This document shows, in pieces, positions 1 to 51,611 of a DNA stretch of 57,380 nt. The translations under genes and the position numbers were made by a program. The stretch lies in the UHGV virus genome UHGV-0150885; one strand, 5' to 3'. This DNA is from a virus. Numbering within the stretch: the first letter of the stretch is position 1; the number at the start of each line of letters is the position of its first letter. The notes beneath the pieces were generated by a model that saw only the letters and a program-made list of their open reading frames with translations, searched no databases and was not told where the DNA came from.

Positions 1-11
1 GATGTCTTAGG

Positions 12-45
12 GTCTCGTGGGCTCGGAGATGTGTATAAGAGACAG
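12..45. other. Illumina Nextera adapter (Tn5 mosaic end) - technical contaminant at contig end
   Basis: Exact match to GTCTCGTGGGCTCGG + AGATGTGTATAAGAGACAG (Nextera read-2 adapter with 19-bp ME). Confidence 0.9.
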
Positions 46-262
46 ATGTAATAATTTGTTATTAGATGAAAAAACACTTTTTTATTAATCAGTTATGGGC
101 AATTGAGGATGAAAAAAATTCTATTTACGTCACCCCTGATGAAATTTCTATAAGTATAGACGGCGATAACTTAAAGTTGCCATATTAGGAATATGGGAAA
201 GAACACGGTGCGCCGATTTTTTGCACTAAATAATTTACATTTTATGTTCAATAATTGATACT

Positions 263-470
263 AACATGTTGGATATTAAAGGTGAAATTATCACAACTGA
301 TGCGATGGGTTGCCAGAAAGATATTGCAGAGAAGATACAAAAACAGGGAGGTAATTATTTATTTGCTGTAAAAGGACATAAGGAGCGGATTAATAAAGCC
401 TTTGAGTGAAACTTCCGCTGAAAATTCAGATTAACCGCGTTCCATGCAAACAATTTTCAAATATTCATCA
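263..470 (+). pseudogene. ISAs1-family (H-repeat) transposase internal fragment, truncated at both ends and frameshifted
   Basis: Translation [38 protein letters not shown] matches conserved core of H-repeat/ISAs1 transposases; continues out of frame (KLPLKIQIN). Confidence 0.7.
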
Positions 471-486
471 ATAAATAAGGAGTTCC

Positions 487-953
487 ATGTTTATACGACC
501 AGTCAAACCTTCAGATGTTGAACCATTAATGGATATGCTGCTTGACAGGGATCAATTTGATCAAGATGGCCTTCATCATGTACAAAAAACACTAACACAT
601 TATTTCTCAGGTCAATCTGCCGATTTATGGTTTAGTGCAGAACACTTGGGACTGGCAGGGATTGCCTACTGTGCTTCTGAAATGATGACAAATGATGTCT
701 GAAATTTATTAATGCTCTGGATCAGTCCTTCCCATCAGCGCCAGGGAGTGAGACATCTGCTGATTAACGAAATAGAAAAGAGCTCACAATTAAACAGGCA
801 AGACTACTATTAGTAGAGACCGCCAGCCATATCGATTTTAGTGCCGCCCGCGCATTTTATACAAAACAGGGCTTTATCAATGAGGCGATAATACGCAATT
901 ACTATGATGTTGGTGAGGATAAATTAATCTTCACTAAAAATATGCAATCGTGA
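487..953 (+). pseudogene. GNAT-family N-acetyltransferase disrupted by at least two frameshifts
   Basis: 71-aa ORF then GNAT motif (WISPSHQRQGVRHLL) and C-terminal RAFYTKQGF in two other frames. Confidence 0.6.
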
Positions 954-1180
954 GATAAAATATGCTTTAACTCATATGGAAACATTGCTTAAACAACTTG
1001 GTTGCTGCATATGATTCTTTAGCCCGCGGTAACTCGCTTACCACTGGTAACAAACGTGCCAGCACCTAAATGATGCAACGTATTGAGCTTATCATCATCA
1101 AACTGCCAGCGGCCTTCGACAAATACCCGTGCGTCTGCCGCTGCTGATACCACTTCGCCAAAAAGGATCTCGCCTTGTTT

Positions 1181-1210
1181 ATTCGCGTTCATTCGCGTTC
1201 ATCCCTGTTC
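1181..1210. repeat. Tandem 10-bp direct repeats (ATTCGCGTTC x2 plus degenerate third) upstream of int; candidate arm/att-associated sites
   Basis: attcgcgttc attcgcgttc atccctgttc read directly. Confidence 0.5.
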
Positions 1211-1339
1211 ACTAATCCCTATCAAAAACAACAGCTTAGATTATTTTTTAGCCGTAGTGTGTCTTCTTACGTACATTGCTGTTAATATCCGTTTAACGAA
1301 AAGTGTGTACCAAAACGTGACCAAAACGAAGGGGGAAAC

Positions 1340-2533
1340 ATGTTGTCTGATACGAAATTACGAGCCATCGCCGGGAAGGCGTACACCGGGCCGGATGAAC
1401 TGGCGGACGCTGGCGGACTATCAGCCAGGGTAAGTGCGAAGGGGAAAATTACATTCCAGTACCGCTATCGTTTCAATGGTAAACCAGTGCGCTTGAAGCT
1501 GGGCGACTATGGCATCATGTCGCTAAAAGAAGCCCGCGCGGCGGTGGCAGAATGCAAGGAGATACTCGCGGAGGGGAAGAATCCGGCAACAGTATTGAAG
1601 CAGCGGATAGAAGGGGAGAAGGAGAAGAAGACGATCAGTGATGTGATTGATGATTATCTCTCAATGACCAACGTCAAAAAACTTGTTAACTACAGGGATA
1701 TTAAAAGTTTTCTACAACGCTATGTAGTGAAAGACTACGGTTTTTATATCGTTGACGATATAACGACGCGTCAATGGATGGATATATTTTCGAAGATAAC
1801 GGAGGCGGGCTACCCCGTACAGGCCGGAATAGTGTTAAAGCGAATGAAGATCGTAATTGATAACGCCATCAGGCGAGATATGGTTACAAGCCAGTCAATA
1901 AAAAATGTTCGCGTTATTGATATTGGAAACACGCCCGGCGTCGGTGAGCGGTATTTATCAACGGATGAAATTGTGGAGTTCTGGCGTGCCGTGGAAAGGT
2001 CGAGGATCTACAGCCTGCATAAGTACGCGCTTAAATTGCTGTTACTTACTGGTTGCCGTGTCATTGAATTGAGGGATGCAAAGAGATCGCATTTTGATTT
2101 AGACAATGGTGTGTGGACGGTCCCGGCTGAAATATCAAAAACCCGGCGACTGATTAGAAGGGGATTATCTGATTACGCCGTCTCTTTATTGCGTGAAATT
2201 ATGGCGGCGCATGATAAAGAGCACCTGTTACCCCCTGCGAGATCACAGGAAGATAAGCCAGCGTGTAAAACCGTAATCAAGAAAGCGGCGCTATCCGTTT
2301 ACAGCATAATGAATTGTGAGGCATGGTCATGTCATGACTTGCGCCGGACATGCCGCACTCATTTAGCAGCTATAGGAGTAGCACCGCACATAGCGGAGAA
2401 AGTATTAGGCCACGCCCTATCAGGCGTGTTAGCCGTTTATGATAAATATGACTACATTGATGAGCAAAAAGAAGCGATGAATAAGTGGGCTGATTATGTT
2501 TTATCCCTGGTTGAGATTAAGCCGCGCTCATGA
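1340..2533 (+). CDS. int: P4-type tyrosine integrase
   Basis: 397 aa; N-terminal arm-binding-like domain (LSDTKLRAIAGKAY...GKPVRLKLGDYGIMSLKEAR); C-terminal HDLRRT...H..Y catalytic motifs. Confidence 0.9.
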   Translation: MLSDTKLRAIAGKAYTGPDELADAGGLSARVSAKGKITFQYRYRFNGKPVRLKLGDYGIMSLKEARAAVAECKEILAEGKNPATVLKQRIEGEKEKKTISDVIDDYLSMTNVKKLVNYRDIKSFLQRYVVKDYGFYIVDDITTRQWMDIFSKITEAGYPVQAGIVLKRMKIVIDNAIRRDMVTSQSIKNVRVIDIGNTPGVGERYLSTDEIVEFWRAVERSRIYSLHKYALKLLLLTGCRVIELRDAKRSHFDLDNGVWTVPAEISKTRRLIRRGLSDYAVSLLREIMAAHDKEHLLPPARSQEDKPACKTVIKKAALSVYSIMNCEAWSCHDLRRTCRTHLAAIGVAPHIAEKVLGHALSGVLAVYDKYDYIDEQKEAMNKWADYVLSLVEIKPRS

Positions 2534-46277: not shown

Positions 46278-49200
46278 ATGGGCGGCGGCGGTGGTAAAGC
46301 AAAAACACCAACATTAATAAACGACAATTTATTTCATAAGCAATTTTACCGGGTTCTGGATATATTGAGTGAAGGGCCGATTTACGGTCCGGTCAATACC
46401 GCTGCCCCGTTAAACTGCGTAATGCTTAATGACACACCTGTTACGGATGCCGTGGGTAATACCAGTATCCCAGGCGTTAGCGTCGCCTGGCGTCCGGGTA
46501 CTGCCGACCAGTCACCGATCAACGGCTTCAACGCCATTGAATCTACGGTAATGGTTAACGCGCAGGTGAAATATGACACGCCACTGGTAAGGACGGTATC
46601 AGATCCGAACGTGACGCGCGTCCGGTTGAATATTGGCGTGGATTCACTGGTGGAAAGTGACAGCGAATCAAACCAGCATGAAACATCAGTTTTTATGGCG
46701 ATTGATGTAAAACCATCATCATCATCAATCTGGTCGGCGATTAAGGCCGTGCAAATCGGTCCGGGTAAGATTAGCGGTGAATATCTGGAATCACACATCA
46801 TTGATGCGCCGGACGAAAAACCGTTCGATATTCGCGTTCGCCGCATAACACCTGACAGCACGGGCGATCTATTGCAGAATGATACCCGCTGGAATAGCTA
46901 CAGTGAAATTATCGACGATAACTTGTCTTATCCTCACACCGCTGTAGCGGGCGCGGTGATTGATCATGACCAGTATACCGACACGCCGACACGCACTTAT
47001 CACATGCGTGGCCTGATTGTTGATGTACCGGATAACTACGATCCGGAAACGCGCACTTATTCCGGTTTATGGCTGGGCGGGATGAAACAGGTGTACACCA
47101 ATAACCCAGCGTGGATCTTCCGGTATCTGGTTAAAAACGAGCGTTTTGGCCTTGCCCGCCATGCTGGTTATATTGACGTTGACGACGGCGCATTATACAC
47201 GCTTTCCCAATACTGCGATCAGTTGGTTGACGATGGTTATGGCGGCCTTGAGCCGCGCGTGACGCTTAATGCATACATTACGGAGCAAATGAGCGCCCGC
47301 GACTTACTGGACAACATTGCCGGAATGTTCCGGGGGATTGCGTTATGGGACGGTCAAACACTTACTGTAATGCTCGATGCACCGCAAGATCCGATTGCAA
47401 CCATCACAAACGCAAACGTCGTTGATGGTGCATTCACCCGTTCAAGCATTGCGCGTGCGGAATGTTACAACGCCGTGATTGTATCCTGGACTGATCCGGA
47501 AAACGGCTGGGAGCAATCAAAAGAGTATGTAGCGGATGATGAGCTAATCGCCCGCGATGGTTACAATGAAACCACACTGGAGGCGTTCGGCTGTACATCA
47601 CGCGGGCAAGCGTACCGCGCGGGCAAATGGCTGATAGAAACAGCAAAACGCGAGCCGTCGAAATTCACGTTTAAAATGGCCCGTGACGCGATTCACTTTA
47701 CACCAGGGGATATTATCGAGATTCTCGATAATAACCGTGCTGGCGCGCGTTTAGGCGGTCGTATCGTGGCGAATAACGGGAACGTGATAACGGTTGATAA
47801 GGTTGATAGCGAGTACATTACGGCAGGCGACACCATCAGCTTGCTCGATAGCGATGGTAAATTTAAAAAACACCAGATCACCGGAGTGAATGGAAACGAG
47901 ATCACCTTAGCGGCGGCCCCGGCATGGATTCGGAACGGTACTGTATTTGCTGTATCAACCGAAGCGGCAAAACCCGTTTTATGTCGAATCACTAGCGTAG
48001 CCGAAACCGAAAATAACAGCGTATACACCATTGAGGCCGCGCAGCACGATCCGAACAAGCAAGCGGTTGTCGATGAGGGCGCAATCTTTGAGGTTAACAG
48101 CGACACGCTGAATCACTTCCGTGTACCGAACATCGAAAACCTGAAAGTGATAAACATTGGATCGGAAACAGTTCAATGCCGCGCCACCTGGGAAACTCAA
48201 ACCACTACCCGCGCATTAACCTTTGAGATCCGCATTTATGACACCGACGGGCGCGTGGTGGCGAGCTACGAAACGCAAAATTACCGGTATGACTTTTTCG
48301 GCCTTGAGTGCGGTAATTATTCGCTTGGTATTCGTGGGCGCAATGACACCGGGATGAAGGGAGCGGAAACACTGGTAGATCTTATTGTTGGTGCGCCTGC
48401 CGCGCCGACTGGTGTTAATTGGGTGCCAGGTGTTTTTCAGGCGACTGTTTACCCGATCAGCAACAGCACGCTAACGACTGATACTACTTACGAATTCTAT
48501 TACGCTGGAGAAAACCAGATTACTGACTTCTCACTGGTAACAACATCAGCGCAATTTTCCGGGCGCGGCTATCAGTGGACTTTTGGCGGGATGGCAACGG
48601 GCCACACGTATTACGTTTACGTGCGCACAAAAAACGCTTTCGGCGTATCTGACTTTATCGAAGCCAGTGGTAAGCCGTCCGAAAACTTCGAAGAAATCAC
48701 GGATGCCGTGCTGAATGAAGTTATGGAGGGTGAGCAATTTCAGGACATGATTAAAGAAACCATCGACGAGGTAACAGGCGGCTTGATGGGCGATGTGGAA
48801 GAACTGAAACAAACCACGGTAGATATTGACCAGGCTGTTACCGATCTGAAAGAATCGACCGCAGACCTGGAAGAACGCGTGAAAAACAATGAGGATGGAA
48901 TTGGAGAACATGAAAGCCAGATCAACGAAATCAGCGTCGAGTTAACTGAACAGGAAAATGAACTAATCCAGACACGCGCCAGCCTGCAAAACGCAGCTAT
49001 TGCGCTTATGAATAACTCACTGGCTAACACCAGCACGCGCACCACGTTGACGGCACAGTATAAAAACCAGAAAGCAGAAACGAAGGCGGAGATTGAGCGC
49101 ATCGACACTGTGATCGCTACAGAGAAAGAAGCGACCGCGCAGGCGCTTACGACACTCGAAAGCAAGGTCAATGACGAAATCAGCGCCAACGTAACCGAAC

Positions 49201-50255
49201 TGCAACAAACCATTGCAACGCTTGAAAGTTCGACAAGCCAGTCGATCGAAAAATTAGAAAGCCAGGTCAACGAAGATATTCAGGCAAGCATAACGGAGAT
49301 TAACCAGACGATCACCGATCTGGAATCATCCACATCTGAATCTATTAGCAACCTTGAGGCTAAAGTAGATGGTGATATATCGTCAGCAATAAGCAACATG
49401 GAGCAAGCACTCGCTACCCACGAAAAAGCCAACGCTACGCAGTTTAATAGCCTGCAAAGTCAGATTGATGAGAATGAGGCTGCAATCACTGAAACTAATC
49501 AGACGATCGCAACCAATGAACAAGCAACCGCGCAGAAGCTGGAGCAACTACAGGCGCAAATAGACGACGATGTGGCGGCAGCTATTACCGAAATGCAATC
49601 CGCGCTTGCCACCCATGAACAAGCTAATGCTACTCAGTTTGCGGAAATTAGCGCATCGCTGGAAGCAAACGAGGCGTCGATCACGGAGTGGAGCGAAGCG
49701 TTTACAACCTATAAGGAATCGACCGCCACGCAGATTGAAAGTATTACGGCGTCAATCGAGGGGCAATCGGTATCAATTGAGGAAAATAAAACCGCCATCG
49801 CTGGCCTTGAAACCGACATGTCGGCAACGTGGAGCGTTAAGATCGCCGCAGACAACAACGGCATGAAATATTTTTCCGGGATCTCGCTTGGCTTGACTGG
49901 CAGCGGTACGAGTACGCAATCGCAATGTATTTTCCTTGCTGACCGCTTTGTATTAATGACAGCGGCAAACGGCACATATACAACGCCTTTCTATGTCACA
50001 AATGGTGCAATGTATGTGCGCGAAGCGTTTATTAAAGACGCCTCAATCACTAACGCGAAAATTGGATCTTACATCCAGTCAAATAACTATGTTTCCGGTA
50101 GTACTGGCTGGAAGCTGGATAAATCCGGTACATTCGAAAACTACGGATCAGTAAGCGGTGAAGGAGCGATGAAATGGACGAACACAACAATCTCTGTCAG
50201 AGATGGAAATAGCGTGTTACGCGTCCAGATTGGGCGAATTACCGGATCATGGTAA
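46278..50255 (+). CDS. J: Host specificity protein J (central tail fibre) with coiled-coil repeat insertion
   Basis: 1325 aa; long colinear blocks with lambda J (FGCTSRGQAYRAGKWLIETAK, RVRRITPDSTGDLLQNDTRWNSYSEIID). Confidence 0.95.
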   Translation: MGGGGGKAKTPTLINDNLFHKQFYRVLDILSEGPIYGPVNTAAPLNCVMLNDTPVTDAVGNTSIPGVSVAWRPGTADQSPINGFNAIESTVMVNAQVKYDTPLVRTVSDPNVTRVRLNIGVDSLVESDSESNQHETSVFMAIDVKPSSSSIWSAIKAVQIGPGKISGEYLESHIIDAPDEKPFDIRVRRITPDSTGDLLQNDTRWNSYSEIIDDNLSYPHTAVAGAVIDHDQYTDTPTRTYHMRGLIVDVPDNYDPETRTYSGLWLGGMKQVYTNNPAWIFRYLVKNERFGLARHAGYIDVDDGALYTLSQYCDQLVDDGYGGLEPRVTLNAYITEQMSARDLLDNIAGMFRGIALWDGQTLTVMLDAPQDPIATITNANVVDGAFTRSSIARAECYNAVIVSWTDPENGWEQSKEYVADDELIARDGYNETTLEAFGCTSRGQAYRAGKWLIETAKREPSKFTFKMARDAIHFTPGDIIEILDNNRAGARLGGRIVANNGNVITVDKVDSEYITAGDTISLLDSDGKFKKHQITGVNGNEITLAAAPAWIRNGTVFAVSTEAAKPVLCRITSVAETENNSVYTIEAAQHDPNKQAVVDEGAIFEVNSDTLNHFRVPNIENLKVINIGSETVQCRATWETQTTTRALTFEIRIYDTDGRVVASYETQNYRYDFFGLECGNYSLGIRGRNDTGMKGAETLVDLIVGAPAAPTGVNWVPGVFQATVYPISNSTLTTDTTYEFYYAGENQITDFSLVTTSAQFSGRGYQWTFGGMATGHTYYVYVRTKNAFGVSDFIEASGKPSENFEEITDAVLNEVMEGEQFQDMIKETIDEVTGGLMGDVEELKQTTVDIDQAVTDLKESTADLEERVKNNEDGIGEHESQINEISVELTEQENELIQTRASLQNAAIALMNNSLANTSTRTTLTAQYKNQKAETKAEIERIDTVIATEKEATAQALTTLESKVNDEISANVTELQQTIATLESSTSQSIEKLESQVNEDIQASITEINQTITDLESSTSESISNLEAKVDGDISSAISNMEQALATHEKANATQFNSLQSQIDENEAAITETNQTIATNEQATAQKLEQLQAQIDDDVAAAITEMQSALATHEQANATQFAEISASLEANEASITEWSEAFTTYKESTATQIESITASIEGQSVSIEENKTAIAGLETDMSATWSVKIAADNNGMKYFSGISLGLTGSGTSTQSQCIFLADRFVLMTAANGTYTTPFYVTNGAMYVREAFIKDASITNAKIGSYIQSNNYVSGSTGWKLDKSGTFENYGSVSGEGAMKWTNTTISVRDGNSVLRVQIGRITGSW

Positions 50256-50262
50256 AATCAAG

Positions 50263-50292
50263 GGGCCGACTTGTTCGGCCTCAGTTTTATTA
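50263..50292 (+). terminator. Rho-independent terminator after J
   Basis: GGGGCCGA-CTTGT-TCGGCCTC hairpin + AGTTTTATT. Confidence 0.6.
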
Positions 50293-50305
50293 AGGAGGTG
50301 AAATT

Positions 50306-50617
50306 ATGGCTACTTTCGGCATAGCGACCTGGGACGCCAACGGCAATCCTAATAACTATGGAATCAAACCTTCCGTCGTGGTTGGCTATATTTCCTTGTC
50401 TTCCGGGCAAGTATCCGGCACATATTCTTTTACCGTTCCAACCGGGTGCAAATTATCTTATGGCGTGGCGCTTGATTATGGTACAACATCGTCAACGCGC
50501 AGAAAGATTAGTATTTCCGGCGGCACTGTTTCCATTTCCTCAGCAGGGGATACGGTAGGGGCTGATATATGGCCCGCATCACAATGTGACCTGATTATTT
50601 TTACGGAGATTGCATAA
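50306..50617 (+). CDS. Hypothetical tail-region protein (103 aa), MATFG family
   Basis: ORF track; N-terminus MATFGIATWDANGN paralogous to next gene. Confidence 0.5.
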   Translation: MATFGIATWDANGNPNNYGIKPSVVVGYISLSSGQVSGTYSFTVPTGCKLSYGVALDYGTTSSTRRKISISGGTVSISSAGDTVGADIWPASQCDLIIFTEIA

Positions 50618-51216
50618 TGGCTACTTTTGGCGCTTATTTACGCCTGGATAATGGCAATATTTTTGTGACGCCGGATTCTACCCCGATGTGTTTATATTCG
50701 CGGGTGGCCTTAAATTCCAGCCAGCAACAAACGATCGCTGTACCCGACGGCAAGCCTGTAATGGTATTCATCAAAAACACCGACGACACCGCCACGGGGC
50801 TTGCTTATCGCGCATCATCATCTACGGTAGTGATCCCGCCTGGTAACGGGTATGCGTATATATTCAGCATCTTCCCGCCATCGCTGCCGAGATGGGGGAT
50901 GGCTATCTGGAACGCTTCCGGGGAATTGGTACTGACCAATGAATCAAAAATATTAACCGACCTTGTTACAGTAGGCACGGCGGGATCGAGCGGGGGGATT
51001 TATATCGATCAAACATTATCAGGATCTTATGCGGTAGTGCCTCAGATATTAGGGGCCGTTGTAGGTATGGGTTCTGCAACAATATATACAGAGGCATACT
51101 ACAACGGCAGCACTACACGAATTCGCGGAAAACAGGTTGGTAGCTTGCAGCAGGCTTACAGCTACATTAACCACGGGAACGCTATCACCGCCATTAAAAC
51201 CGACGCCTATGATTAA
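50617..51216 (+). CDS. Hypothetical tail-region protein (199 aa), MATFG family
   Basis: ORF track; N-terminus MATFGAYLRLDNGN. Confidence 0.5.
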   Translation: MATFGAYLRLDNGNIFVTPDSTPMCLYSRVALNSSQQQTIAVPDGKPVMVFIKNTDDTATGLAYRASSSTVVIPPGNGYAYIFSIFPPSLPRWGMAIWNASGELVLTNESKILTDLVTVGTAGSSGGIYIDQTLSGSYAVVPQILGAVVGMGSATIYTEAYYNGSTTRIRGKQVGSLQQAYSYINHGNAITAIKTDAYD

Positions 51217-51452
51217 TTCAGTTCCGGGCAATCCGTTTTCTTGAAGTGGTCAACGCTCACCCATTGGAAATTGAACGGATACCCGGCCTTAACCATTTTG
51301 TGACCGCCAACATCTGCAACGCCAAAGACTGCAACCGCATATTCATTACCGCCAGTTTGATAGATTGCTGTACATTCACGTTTTGGCATATCAGCACAAC
51401 CAACCAGACCAGCAACCATTGCAGCGATAGCGATATTTTTTAAACCTTTCAT
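51213..51452 (-). CDS. Small lipoprotein, Cor-like candidate
   Basis: MKGLKNIAIAAMVAGLVGC lipobox; GGAGGG SD; reverse-oriented between J and tail-fibre genes. Confidence 0.6.
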   Translation of the reverse strand: MKGLKNIAIAAMVAGLVGCADMPKRECTAIYQTGGNEYAVAVFGVADVGGHKMVKAGYPFNFQWVSVDHFKKTDCPELN

Positions 51453-51611
51453 TGTCTTACCCTCCGTTGTTTCGTTGGTTGTAGTATCCATAAACCGCAT
51501 TTTTACAACATTGATGTAAATCAACAAACACATTTTGTATAAACCAGAAATGTAACATAGATCACAAAATGGTAGAATTATTCCGTTAATTAACATAATG
51601 GAGTCATTGCA

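What the first reader, a model, noticed from the sequence alone, without database searches (positions are those of the whole stretch)
51213..51611. Reverse-oriented small lipoprotein between J and tail-fibre genes (Cor-like candidate)
A 79-aa lipoprotein (lipobox LVGC) with its own promoter is encoded on the opposite strand between J and the side tail fibre gene. That is the usual location and type of Cor-like superinfection-exclusion lipoproteins that block receptor-dependent phage entry.
Basis: partly seen in the sequence, partly recalled or inferred. Interest (0 to 1): 0.45.

Follow-up and report, generated by a model that had tools for sequence, protein, structure and literature searches.

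The report
Prophage Cor receptor-blocking lipoprotein gene
This is an ordinary cor gene: a small outer-membrane lipoprotein that an E. coli prophage most likely makes to shut the FhuA receptor against incoming phages, and standard annotation pipelines already recognise it.

Summary
The ORF is real. On the minus strand, 51213-51452 encodes a 79-aa prolipoprotein with a GGAGGG ribosome-binding site, lipobox LVGC and lipidated Cys19. It passes NCBI's curated equivalog model for "phage exclusion lipoprotein Cor" (54.6 bits, cut-off 31) and matches PHROG 1119 Cor (E 1.3e-23). It is 50% identical to T1 Cor, 64% to phage herni Cor and about 36% to N15 and HK022 Cor. It keeps the family's invariant Cys27, Cys75 and AGYPF motif. 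In relatives that encode the identical protein, all 13-15 nucleotide differences are silent. The AlphaFold model resembles T5 Llp bound to FhuA (PDB 8A60), though only weakly.

The gene sits in the complete published "cor cassette": J, a 103-aa protein, a 199-aa protein, then a convergent cor. T1 has the same order and orientation, and this cassette has been found in phages that use FhuA. The window is an E. coli prophage of the mEp021/mEpimmI group. In that group, the same slot carries other lipoproteins that have been shown to cause exclusion.

RefSeq already names a 97%-identical protein Cor. A cor promoter must exist because of the gene's orientation, but none was located. Novelty and interest are low.

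The parts
51213..51452 (-). cor coding sequence. It encodes a 79-aa prolipoprotein and a 61-aa mature protein (Cys19-Asn79).
   Evidence: ORF and translation. NCBIfam NF047972 at 54.6 bits against a cut-off of 31. PHROG 1119 at E 1.3e-23. Alignments A1 and A2. Silent-substitution pattern.
51396..51452 (-). Signal peptide (residues 1-18) and the lipobox Cys19 codon (51396-51398). The lipobox is LVGC and residue +2 is Ala, which predicts sorting to the outer membrane.
   Evidence: Read directly from the sequence. G18 is nearly invariant and C19 invariant across 81 family members. Outer-membrane sorting is inferred from the E. coli +2 rule (established knowledge).
51460..51465 (-). Shine-Dalgarno sequence GGAGGG, 7 nt upstream of the cor ATG.
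   Evidence: Sequence. Conserved as GGAGGG, GGAGGA or GGGGGG in the cor-type relatives.
51453..51611 (.). Divergent intergenic control region (32% GC) between cor and the tail-fibre gene. The 51510-51611 block is conserved in all mEp021-type phages, whichever lipoprotein follows it. The cor promoter must lie here but was not pinned down.
   Evidence: Alignment A3. Megablast matches to the mEp phages begin at 51510. GC content. No consensus promoter found. Weak candidates, plus a plus-strand extended -10 TGgTAGAAT at 51570-51578. Palindrome TTAATTAA at 51586-51593.
50617..51216 (+). 199-aa 'membrane associated protein' (phrog_425), the second accessory gene of the cor cassette. Its stop codon overlaps the cor stop codon (TTAA, 51213-51216).
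   Evidence: PHROG 425 at E 2.5e-49. 51% identical to herni gp76, 47% to T1 gp31 and 45% to N15 gp23. Cassette described in PMC13164509.
50306..50617 (+). 103-aa 'outer membrane protein' (phrog_557), the first accessory gene of the cor cassette. It is a candidate receptor-binding accessory protein.
   Evidence: PHROG 557 at E 2.7e-28. 54% identical to N15 gp22, 50% to herni gp75 and 46% to T1 gp32. No significant similarity to the BtuB-type allele of FritzSarasin.
46278..50255 (+). Tail-tip protein J (1325 aa). It is a mosaic. Residues 1-850 are 86% identical to mEp021 and mEp554 J. The last 100 residues (49953-50252) are of the T1/HK022/N15 type and end in IGRITGSW, without the C-terminal extension seen in mEp021 and mEp554.
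   Evidence: Pfam and PHROG domains. Segment-wise BLASTP.
50262..50282 (.). GC-rich hairpin flanked by T-runs on both strands, just after J. It looks like a bidirectional terminator, and it is the first strong stop a cor transcript would meet.
   Evidence: Terminator scan.

Best explanation
The gene is a cor gene, a member of the Cor family of phage superinfection-exclusion lipoproteins. It is carried by an E. coli prophage of the mEp021/mEpimmI group.

Inferred mechanism:
1. The 79-aa precursor is exported. It is lipidated on Cys19 and cleaved by signal peptidase II. [quoted passage not shown]
2. The 61-aa mature domain is a small beta-barrel. Its two ends are probably tied together by a Cys27-Cys75 disulfide.
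3. This domain binds the periplasmic face of the TonB-dependent transporter FhuA and holds it in a state that phage receptor-binding proteins cannot use. T5 Llp has been shown structurally to act this way.
4. A lysogen would therefore resist phages that enter through FhuA, such as T1, phi80, HK022, N15, T5 and the prophage's own kind. Progeny released at lysis would not be wasted on cell debris.

The gene belongs to a four-part mobile host-recognition module made of the J C-terminus, the 103-aa protein, the 199-aa protein and cor. In this phage lineage the module has replaced the OmpA-specific or LamB-specific J tip and its matching lipoprotein. This predicts that the phage itself uses FhuA.

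What is shown: family membership, lipoprotein features, gene context, purifying selection and fold similarity. What is inferred: lipidation, localisation, the FhuA target, the allosteric mode of blocking, and expression from the repressed prophage.
For: Family membership:
- NCBIfam equivalog at 54.6 bits against a cut-off of 31, and PHROG 1119 at E 1.3e-23.
- tblastn finds 212 phage records, and many of the listed best matches are annotated Cor or super-infection exclusion protein.
- Identity is 50% to T1 Cor, 64% to herni Cor and about 36% to N15 and HK022 Cor.
- C19, C27, C75, G57, P59 and F70 are invariant in 81 homologues.

Real gene: 13-15 nucleotide differences are all silent in loci encoding the identical protein, and there are 14 synonymous against 2 non-synonymous codon changes versus Ecol_244.

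Context:
- The order J, phrog_557, phrog_425, cor is the same as in T1, herni and N15. In T1 and herni cor is also convergent.
- The complete three-gene cassette has been reported only with FhuA-using phages (PMC13164509).
- PeterMerian, whose Cor is 62.7% identical, uses FhuA experimentally (Maffei 2021 supplementary table).
- The BtuB-type allele of FritzSarasin is unrelated in the mature lipoprotein and in the small accessory protein.

Fold:
- The AF2 model has about 90 pLDDT over the mature domain.
- Foldseek places T5 Llp from the FhuA-Llp crystal structure at rank 2 (8a60_B: prob 1.00, TM 0.57, rmsd 2.8 A over 51 columns, 25% identity).
- The BFVD hits after a Cor protein include lipoproteins and receptor-blocking proteins of T5-like phages.
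- Both mature proteins are about 61 aa. The cysteines fall at mature positions 9 and 57 here, against the Cys11-Cys58 disulfide of Llp.

Lineage precedent: in mEp021 and mEp010 the lipoprotein in the same slot excludes phages that use the same receptor as the host phage (PMC11893012).
Against: - No experiment exists for this protein or its clade.
- The Foldseek match to Llp is statistically weak (E 0.039) and sits among Tudor and chromo-domain barrels.
- Direct Cor-FhuA binding has not been shown experimentally for any Cor. It rests on homology to Llp and on an AF3 model in PMC13164509. A 2026 preprint states that the Cor mechanism is still not elucidated.
- Cor-like lipoproteins also accompany phages that use BtuB, so the family alone does not fix the target.
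- The J C-terminus does not identify the receptor. It is 56% identical even to the J of a BtuB phage.
- No recognisable sigma-70 promoter was found for cor.
- There is no Pfam or PADLOC match.
Confidence: 0.8

Rival explanations
1. It is a Cor-family exclusion lipoprotein, but it blocks an outer-membrane receptor other than FhuA, for example BtuB or another TonB-dependent transporter. The phage would use that receptor too.
For: Cor/Llp-like lipoproteins occur in BtuB-using Markadamsvirinae and in one Tempevirinae species (PMC13164509). The protein is only 50% identical to T1 Cor and about 36% to N15 and HK022 Cor. The J terminus does not identify the receptor.
Against: The complete three-gene cassette, including the phrog_557 protein, has so far been found only with FhuA users. 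All three proteins are 45-64% identical to FhuA-type alleles. Against the BtuB-type allele of FritzSarasin the 199-aa protein is only 23% identical, and the 103-aa protein and the mature lipoprotein show no significant similarity. The closest relative with a tested receptor, PeterMerian, uses FhuA.
Confidence: 0.1
2. Cor does exclude FhuA-dependent phages, but not by the Llp-like route of binding the periplasmic face of FhuA directly. It acts instead through other outer-membrane proteins, or at a step after adsorption.
For: [quoted passage not shown] The 2026 Llp preprint says the molecular mechanism of Cor is not yet elucidated.
Against: Shared fold, size and cysteine pattern with Llp. An AF3 Cor-FhuA model with ipTM 0.84 at the Llp site has been reported for KanT1 Cor. 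Cor is reported to inactivate FhuA functions in general (Uc-Mass 2004, as cited).
Confidence: 0.08
3. It is a small lipoprotein with an unrelated role, such as an o-spanin-like lysis component or a virion-associated protein, or it is a spurious antisense ORF.
For: Short ORFs are common in this window on both strands. Outer-membrane spanin subunits are also small lipoproteins (established knowledge).
Against: The curated Cor model is passed with a margin. The gene is nowhere near a lysis cassette. All nucleotide differences are silent in four other loci. The gene is called on 21 contigs in the same context. It has a strong Shine-Dalgarno sequence.
Confidence: 0.02

Closest known systems
Cor of coliphage T1 (ST30) and of T1-like Drexlerviridae and Dhillonvirus phages such as herni and PeterMerian
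   Same: 50% identity to T1 Cor and 60-64% to the Cor of herni, PeterMerian and Dhillonvirus phages. Same length class, lipobox, two conserved cysteines and AGYPF motif. Same cassette order (J, phrog_557, phrog_425, cor) and the same convergent, reversed orientation.
   Different: The carrier here is a temperate, integrating E. coli prophage of the mEp021/mEpimmI group, not a virulent T1-like phage. The protein has a 4-residue C-terminal extension (PELN) and two extra residues in the signal peptide. Downstream lies a tail-fibre gene rather than recombination genes.
Cor of the temperate phages N15 (gene 24), HK022 (gp27), phi80 and mEp167
   Same: Same family (about 36% identity to N15 and HK022 Cor). 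In N15 the same three-gene cassette follows J; the HK022 record lists only J and Cor. These phages are temperate and use FhuA, and HK022 Cor is annotated as a phage-exclusion moron product.
   Different: In N15 and HK022 cor is on the same strand as J. Those proteins have a 3-residue insertion before the first mature cysteine. Sequence divergence is larger than to the T1 clade.
Llp of phage T5 (PDB 8A60, FhuA-Llp complex)
   Same: A lipoprotein whose mature form is 61 aa, with a small beta-barrel fold and a disulfide tying the termini. It is encoded next to the receptor-binding gene and blocks FhuA from the periplasmic side.
   Different: Only about 25% identity in the structural alignment, and no hit in a sequence search of the PDB. 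The Foldseek E-value is 0.039. T5 uses a dedicated receptor-binding protein (pb5) and has no phrog_557 or phrog_425 genes.
Lpp exclusion lipoproteins of mEpimmI phages (type A of mEp021, type C of mEp010 and mEp554)
   Same: Same phage lineage (81-85% nucleotide identity). Same slot and reversed orientation between J and the tail-fibre gene, behind the same conserved intergenic block. Types A and C are experimentally shown to exclude phages that share the host phage's receptor.
   Different: The mature domains are unrelated in sequence. Those lipoproteins pair with OmpA or LamB and with a J protein carrying a C-terminal extension. They lack the 103-aa and 199-aa accessory genes.
Rtp45 of phage Rtp (LptD-directed exclusion lipoprotein, PDB 9RPS)
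   Same: A small periplasmic-side exclusion lipoprotein encoded in the variable receptor-binding locus downstream of J in small siphophages.
   Different: It targets LptDE by steric displacement of loops. It did not appear among the top 50 structural matches to the model.

Membership tests
Cor phage exclusion lipoprotein (NCBIfam NF047972 / PHROG 1119) | Whole-protein match to the curated family profile above its cut-off | tested here: met
   NF047972 equivalog: 54.6 bits against a cut-off of 31, E 7.8e-15, covering residues 7-75. PHROG 1119: E 1.3e-23.
Cor phage exclusion lipoprotein (NCBIfam NF047972 / PHROG 1119) | N-terminal lipoprotein signal peptide with a lipobox and an invariant Cys | tested here: met
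   The sequence reads MKGLKNIAIAAMVAGLVG|C, with lipobox LVGC. C19 is invariant and G18 nearly invariant in 81 homologues.
Cor phage exclusion lipoprotein (NCBIfam NF047972 / PHROG 1119) | Conserved mature-domain signature: two cysteines near the ends and the AGYPF motif | tested here: met
   C27, C75, G57, P59 and F70 are invariant. A56, Y58 and F60 are at least 90% conserved.
Cor phage exclusion lipoprotein (NCBIfam NF047972 / PHROG 1119) | Location in the cor cassette, downstream of J and of the phrog_557 and phrog_425 genes | tested here: met
   The cassette is defined in PMC13164509.
Cor phage exclusion lipoprotein (NCBIfam NF047972 / PHROG 1119) | Excludes FhuA-dependent phages and inactivates FhuA functions when expressed | not testable with these tools
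   This needs plating assays and ferrichrome, albomycin or colicin M assays. It is supported only indirectly, by the FhuA usage of the closest relative with a tested receptor.
Cor phage exclusion lipoprotein (NCBIfam NF047972 / PHROG 1119) | Lipidation and outer-membrane localisation | not testable with these tools
   Predicted from the lipobox and from Ala at +2 (no Asp retention signal). Testing needs globomycin, palmitate labelling or fractionation.
Llp/Cor structural superfamily (T5 Llp, PDB 8A60 chain B) | Small beta-barrel fold that superposes on Llp | tested here: inconclusive
   Llp ranks second among PDB hits (prob 1.00, TM 0.57 normalised to Llp, rmsd 2.8 A over 51 columns), but E is 0.039 and Tudor-like barrels score similarly. 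BFVD hits include T5-like lipoproteins at E 0.004-0.01.
Llp/Cor structural superfamily (T5 Llp, PDB 8A60 chain B) | Intramolecular disulfide linking the N- and C-terminal regions of the mature protein | not testable with these tools
   Invariant cysteines lie at mature positions 9 and 57, against Cys11-Cys58 in Llp. The bond itself was not examined.
mEpimmI Lpp exclusion lipoproteins, types A and C | Sequence similarity of the mature domain | tested here: not met
   BLASTP of the mature parts gives no significant match (E 0.076 and 4.3). Only the signal peptides resemble each other.
mEpimmI Lpp exclusion lipoproteins, types A and C | Reverse-oriented lipoprotein gene in the slot between J and the tail fibre, behind the conserved intergenic block | tested here: met
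   The position is the same but the protein family is different.

The most novel reading that the evidence does not exclude
This Cor clade is confined, as far as seen here, to mEpimmI-type E. coli prophages, and is only 50% identical to T1 Cor. Together with its matching 103-aa and 199-aa proteins, it could be directed at a receptor other than FhuA, or could act on FhuA differently from Llp. That would define a new receptor and exclusion pair in a prophage group common in the gut. In that group, the conserved 100-nt intergenic block would serve as the junction at which receptor and exclusion modules are swapped.
Probability: 0.1. Interest if true: 0.4.

Novelty: already known. Interest (0 to 1): 0.12.

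Why it matters
The finding has practical rather than conceptual value. It predicts that lysogens of this prophage resist T1, phi80, T5 and other phages that enter through FhuA, and may have altered FhuA-dependent uptake. It also predicts that the prophage itself uses FhuA. That would add a third, untested receptor type to the mEpimmI group, where OmpA and LamB have been shown experimentally. The locus also illustrates that the receptor-recognition and exclusion genes move together as a module between virulent T1-like phages and unrelated temperate phages. None of this opens a new question. The gene family, its position and its likely mechanism are all already described.

Tried and rejected
Searches that gave nothing for the 79-aa protein or the locus:
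- Pfam: no family for the lipoprotein.
- PADLOC defence models: no hit.
- Sequence search of the PDB: no hit at E up to 10.
- Rfam on 50200-51800: no RNA family.
- Inverted-repeat search: only a TTAATTAA palindrome and one 10-nt pair.

Promoter. The consensus scan found no sigma-70 site in the cor upstream spacer. A relaxed scan written here gave only weak cor-strand candidates, TTGTTG-17-TGtAAAAAT and TCTACC-16-TGtTACATT. Neither is well conserved across relatives, so I do not claim a mapped promoter.

The 127-aa reading of the ORF (ATG at 51596) was rejected. It has no Shine-Dalgarno sequence, it would place the signal peptide internally, and it overlaps a non-coding block conserved in phages with unrelated lipoproteins. 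In mEp554 the same block is annotated as a 39-aa ORF in what looks like an artefact.

Using the J C-terminus to predict the receptor was rejected. The last 100 aa are 63-64% identical to FhuA phages but still 56% identical to the BtuB phage FritzSarasin.

An internal-repeat relationship between the 103-aa protein and the two halves of the 199-aa protein gave only E of about 0.1, so it is left as a hint.

A single-sequence homologue search returned only 8 proteins because of the word index. A profile search was needed to reach the family.

Full report
**What is in the sequence**

The minus strand carries an ORF whose stop codon is at 51213-51215. The mechanical ORF list extends it to an ATG at 51596 (127 aa). 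The 79-aa form is the correct one, for four reasons:
- It begins with a textbook lipoprotein signal peptide: MKGLKNIAIAAMVAGLVG|C, with lipobox L16-V17-G18-C19.
- Homologues are mostly 72-81 aa and share this Met1.
- The upstream extension overlaps a non-coding block that is conserved in phages carrying unrelated genes at this position.
- Gene callers chose the 79-aa form on 21 public contigs.

The stop codon overlaps the stop codon of the convergent 199-aa ORF by 4 nt (TTAA, 51213-51216).

**Is it more than chance?**

Yes. This window holds dozens of spurious ORFs of 40-170 aa, so length alone proves nothing. The substitution pattern is what shows a real gene. Four independent loci encode the identical protein with 13-15 nucleotide differences from the window, and every one of those differences is silent. 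Against the E. coli Ecol_244 prophage there are 14 synonymous and 2 non-synonymous codon differences. This is a protein-coding gene under purifying selection.

**What it is**

- The protein scores 54.6 bits against the NCBIfam equivalog NF047972, "phage exclusion lipoprotein Cor", whose curated cut-off is 31.
- It matches PHROG 1119, "Cor superinfection exclusion protein", at E 1.3e-23.
- tblastn finds it in 212 phage records, and many of the listed best matches are annotated Cor or super-infection exclusion protein. The best are 60-64% identical and come from Drexlerviridae and Dhillonvirus phages.
- Pairwise identity is 64% to herni Cor, 50% to T1 Cor and about 36% to N15 and HK022 Cor.
- A profile search returned 313 family members across the Enterobacteriaceae. 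In an 81-sequence alignment C19, C27, C75, G57, P59 and F70 are invariant and the AGYPF motif is nearly so.
- Pfam, PADLOC and a sequence search of the PDB gave nothing.

**Fold**

The AlphaFold2 model built on that alignment has a mean pLDDT of 81.9. The mature domain is at about 90 and is all-beta. Foldseek against the PDB places T5 Llp, taken from the FhuA-Llp crystal structure (8a60_B), at rank 2. The match has prob 1.00, TM 0.57 normalised to Llp, rmsd 2.8 A over 51 columns and 25% identity. The E-value is only 0.039, and Tudor and chromo-domain barrels score similarly.

Against BFVD the best hit is a Dhillonvirus Cor (E 1.4e-8). The next four are lipoproteins and "receptor-blocking" proteins of T5-like phages.

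The mature protein is 61 aa, with cysteines at mature positions 9 and 57. Mature Llp is also about 61 aa, and its Cys11-Cys58 disulfide ties the termini together (PMC9586334). This agrees with published statements that Cor and Llp share one fold. I rate this structural test as consistent but not decisive.

**Surroundings**

The window is an E. coli prophage. Positions 46-1165 are 99.8% identical to the E. coli chromosome in the yddH/ISAs1 region. An ORF follows at 1340-2533 that I take, by position only, to be the integrase. The rest of the window is 81-85% identical in nucleotide sequence to the mEp021/mEpimmI phages.

J (46278-50255, 1325 aa) is a mosaic:

| J segment | Closest relatives | Identity |
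|---|---|---|
| Residues 1-850 | mEp021 and mEp554 J | 86% |
| Last 100 residues | T1, HK022, N15 and herni J C-termini | 63-64% |

The window's J ends in IGRITGSW, as T1's does. The mEp021 and mEp554 J proteins continue past that point into extra C-terminal extensions.

Two plus-strand genes lie between J and cor. The 103-aa protein matches phrog_557 and is 46-54% identical to T1 gp32 and N15 gp22. The 199-aa protein matches phrog_425 and is 45-51% identical to T1 gp31, N15 gp23 and herni gp76.

The order J, phrog_557, phrog_425, cor is exactly that of T1, herni and N15. In T1 and herni cor is also on the opposite strand, whereas in N15 and HK022 it is co-directional.

**What the literature says about this module**

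Maffei et al. 2021 matched allelic variants of the locus downstream of J, together with their matching exclusion proteins, to each known receptor of the small siphophages. The KanT1 paper calls cor plus the two upstream genes the "cor cassette". It reports the complete cassette only in FhuA-using phages: T1, HK022, N15, ES18, phi80 and ten BASEL phages. It also notes Cor-like proteins without the full cassette in BtuB users.

I checked this link in two ways:
- PeterMerian (Bas05), whose Cor is 62.7% identical to the window's, has FhuA as its experimentally determined terminal receptor.
- The BtuB-type locus of FritzSarasin (Bas04) has three reverse-strand genes. Its lipoprotein resembles the window's Cor only in the signal peptide. 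Its small accessory protein shows no significant similarity to the 103-aa protein, and its larger one is 23% identical to the 199-aa protein.

The same comparison showed that the J terminus cannot be used to predict the receptor, because it is still 56% identical in the BtuB phage. The FhuA prediction therefore rests on Cor and the two accessory proteins, not on J.

**The slot within the phage lineage**

In mEp021 the same position holds a reverse-oriented 72-aa lipoprotein (gp81, type A). In mEp554 it holds an 82-aa lipoprotein (type C). The mEpimmI paper showed that type A excludes the OmpA-dependent phages mEp021 and mEp515. Type C excludes LamB-dependent phages, including lambda (PMC11893012). 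The mature domains of those two lipoproteins are unrelated to the window's Cor.

The intergenic block 51510-51611 is conserved in all these phages whichever lipoprotein follows it, and the sequences diverge immediately after it.

The Ecol_244 and UMNK88 prophages, both in that paper's dataset, carry the cor cassette at 85-88% nucleotide identity, and PGAP names the gene cor in both. The Cor-type allele is therefore already present in the published mEpimmI set. However, the text never calls it Cor or links it to FhuA, and it was not tested there.

Four of 5,426 complete E. coli genomes carry the cassette. Loci with the identical Cor have J proteins of 1179-1325 aa and downstream fibres of 853-1593 aa. 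Cor, the 103-aa protein and the 197/199-aa protein stay together while their neighbours recombine.

**Promoter**

Both neighbouring genes are on the other strand, so cor must have its own promoter. The 159-nt spacer upstream is 32% GC. The consensus scan found no sigma-70 site there, and my relaxed scan gave only weak cor-strand candidates that are not well conserved.

The clearest element in the block points the other way. It is an extended -10, TGgTAGAAT (51570-51578), 34 nt upstream of the tail-fibre ATG.

No terminator separates cor from the 199-aa gene. The first strong hairpin on the cor strand is the bidirectional one at 50262-50282, just after J.

**Mechanism**

Shown here: family membership, lipoprotein signals, the cassette context, purifying selection, and a fold compatible with Llp.

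Inferred from established lipoprotein biology: export, lipidation at Cys19, cleavage by signal peptidase II, and Lol-dependent sorting to the outer membrane because residue +2 is Ala.

[quoted passage not shown] This has been shown structurally for T5 Llp and modelled for KanT1 Cor.

The literature itself says the Cor mechanism has not been elucidated experimentally. One study points to a role for other outer-membrane proteins (its title is cited). I keep that as a rival view of the mechanism.

**Verdict**

This is a recognisable cor gene in a recognisable cor cassette, and RefSeq already names a 97%-identical protein Cor. Only two things go slightly beyond routine annotation. One is the prediction that this mEpimmI-type prophage uses FhuA. 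The other is the clear view of a J-tip, accessory-protein and cor module swapped into a lineage that otherwise carries OmpA or LamB modules. Interest is low.

Noticed in passing
window 51510-51611: This roughly 100-nt AT-rich block is conserved (83-89% identity) in all mEp021-type phages and prophages, whichever lipoprotein gene follows it. It contains an invariant TTAATTAA palindrome (51586-51593). It also has a plus-strand extended -10, TGgTAGAAT (51570-51578), 34 nt before the tail-fibre ATG. It may be a shared divergent control region and a recombination joint.
   Followed up: partly
window 50306-50617 and 50617-51216: The two cassette proteins annotated 'outer membrane' and 'membrane associated' have no visible signal peptide or hydrophobic N-terminus. 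Both start with MATFG. The 103-aa protein shows weak similarity to both halves of the 199-aa protein (E about 0.1; phrog_557 also weakly hits residues 93-125 of the larger one). They may be tail-tip receptor-binding accessory proteins rather than membrane proteins.
   Followed up: partly
window 46278-50255 (J), especially about 48830-49670: J is a mosaic. Its N-terminal 850 aa are of the mEp021 type, and its last 100 aa are of the T1/HK022 type. In between is a coiled-coil repeat tract that hits Apolipoprotein-like profiles. The length of J varies (1179-1325 aa) between loci carrying the identical Cor.
   Followed up: partly
window 51612-55589, and L005-L012: The tail-fibre gene downstream of cor (1325 aa, with a Laminin_G_3 C-terminal domain) is replaced by quite different fibres (853-1593 aa, several with a Peptidase_S74 domain) in loci that carry the identical Cor. 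The fibre module therefore recombines independently of the cor cassette.
   Followed up: partly
window 1-2533: Positions 46-1165 are E. coli chromosome (yddH/ISAs1 region, 99.8% identity). The prophage appears to start near 1166, with an ORF at 1340-2533 that may be the integrase (not checked). The attachment site was not mapped.
   Followed up: partly
L002 7039-7155 (mEp554_112); database proteins P0001 and P0002: The 39-aa ORF annotated in mEp554, and the 106-aa and 127-aa database versions of this Cor, all read through the conserved non-coding block. They look like gene-calling artefacts.
   Followed up: yes
window 50262-50282: A GC-rich hairpin with T-runs on both strands sits directly after J. 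It looks like a bidirectional terminator. A cor transcript would run antisense through the 199-aa and 103-aa genes before reaching it.
   Followed up: no
window 55878-57380: A second fibre-like ORF (at least 500 aa) ends at the last base of the window, with no stop codon in view. Equivalent 500-aa genes in related loci carry a Peptidase_S74 domain.
   Followed up: no
L016 19881-21045 (phage FritzSarasin, a BtuB user): The BtuB-type locus after J has three reverse-strand genes, including an 89-aa lipoprotein (LTGC lipobox). That lipoprotein is unrelated to Cor in its mature part, while the J terminus remains 56% identical to the window's. The J terminus therefore seems to be a common docking platform rather than the determinant of receptor choice.
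   Followed up: yes
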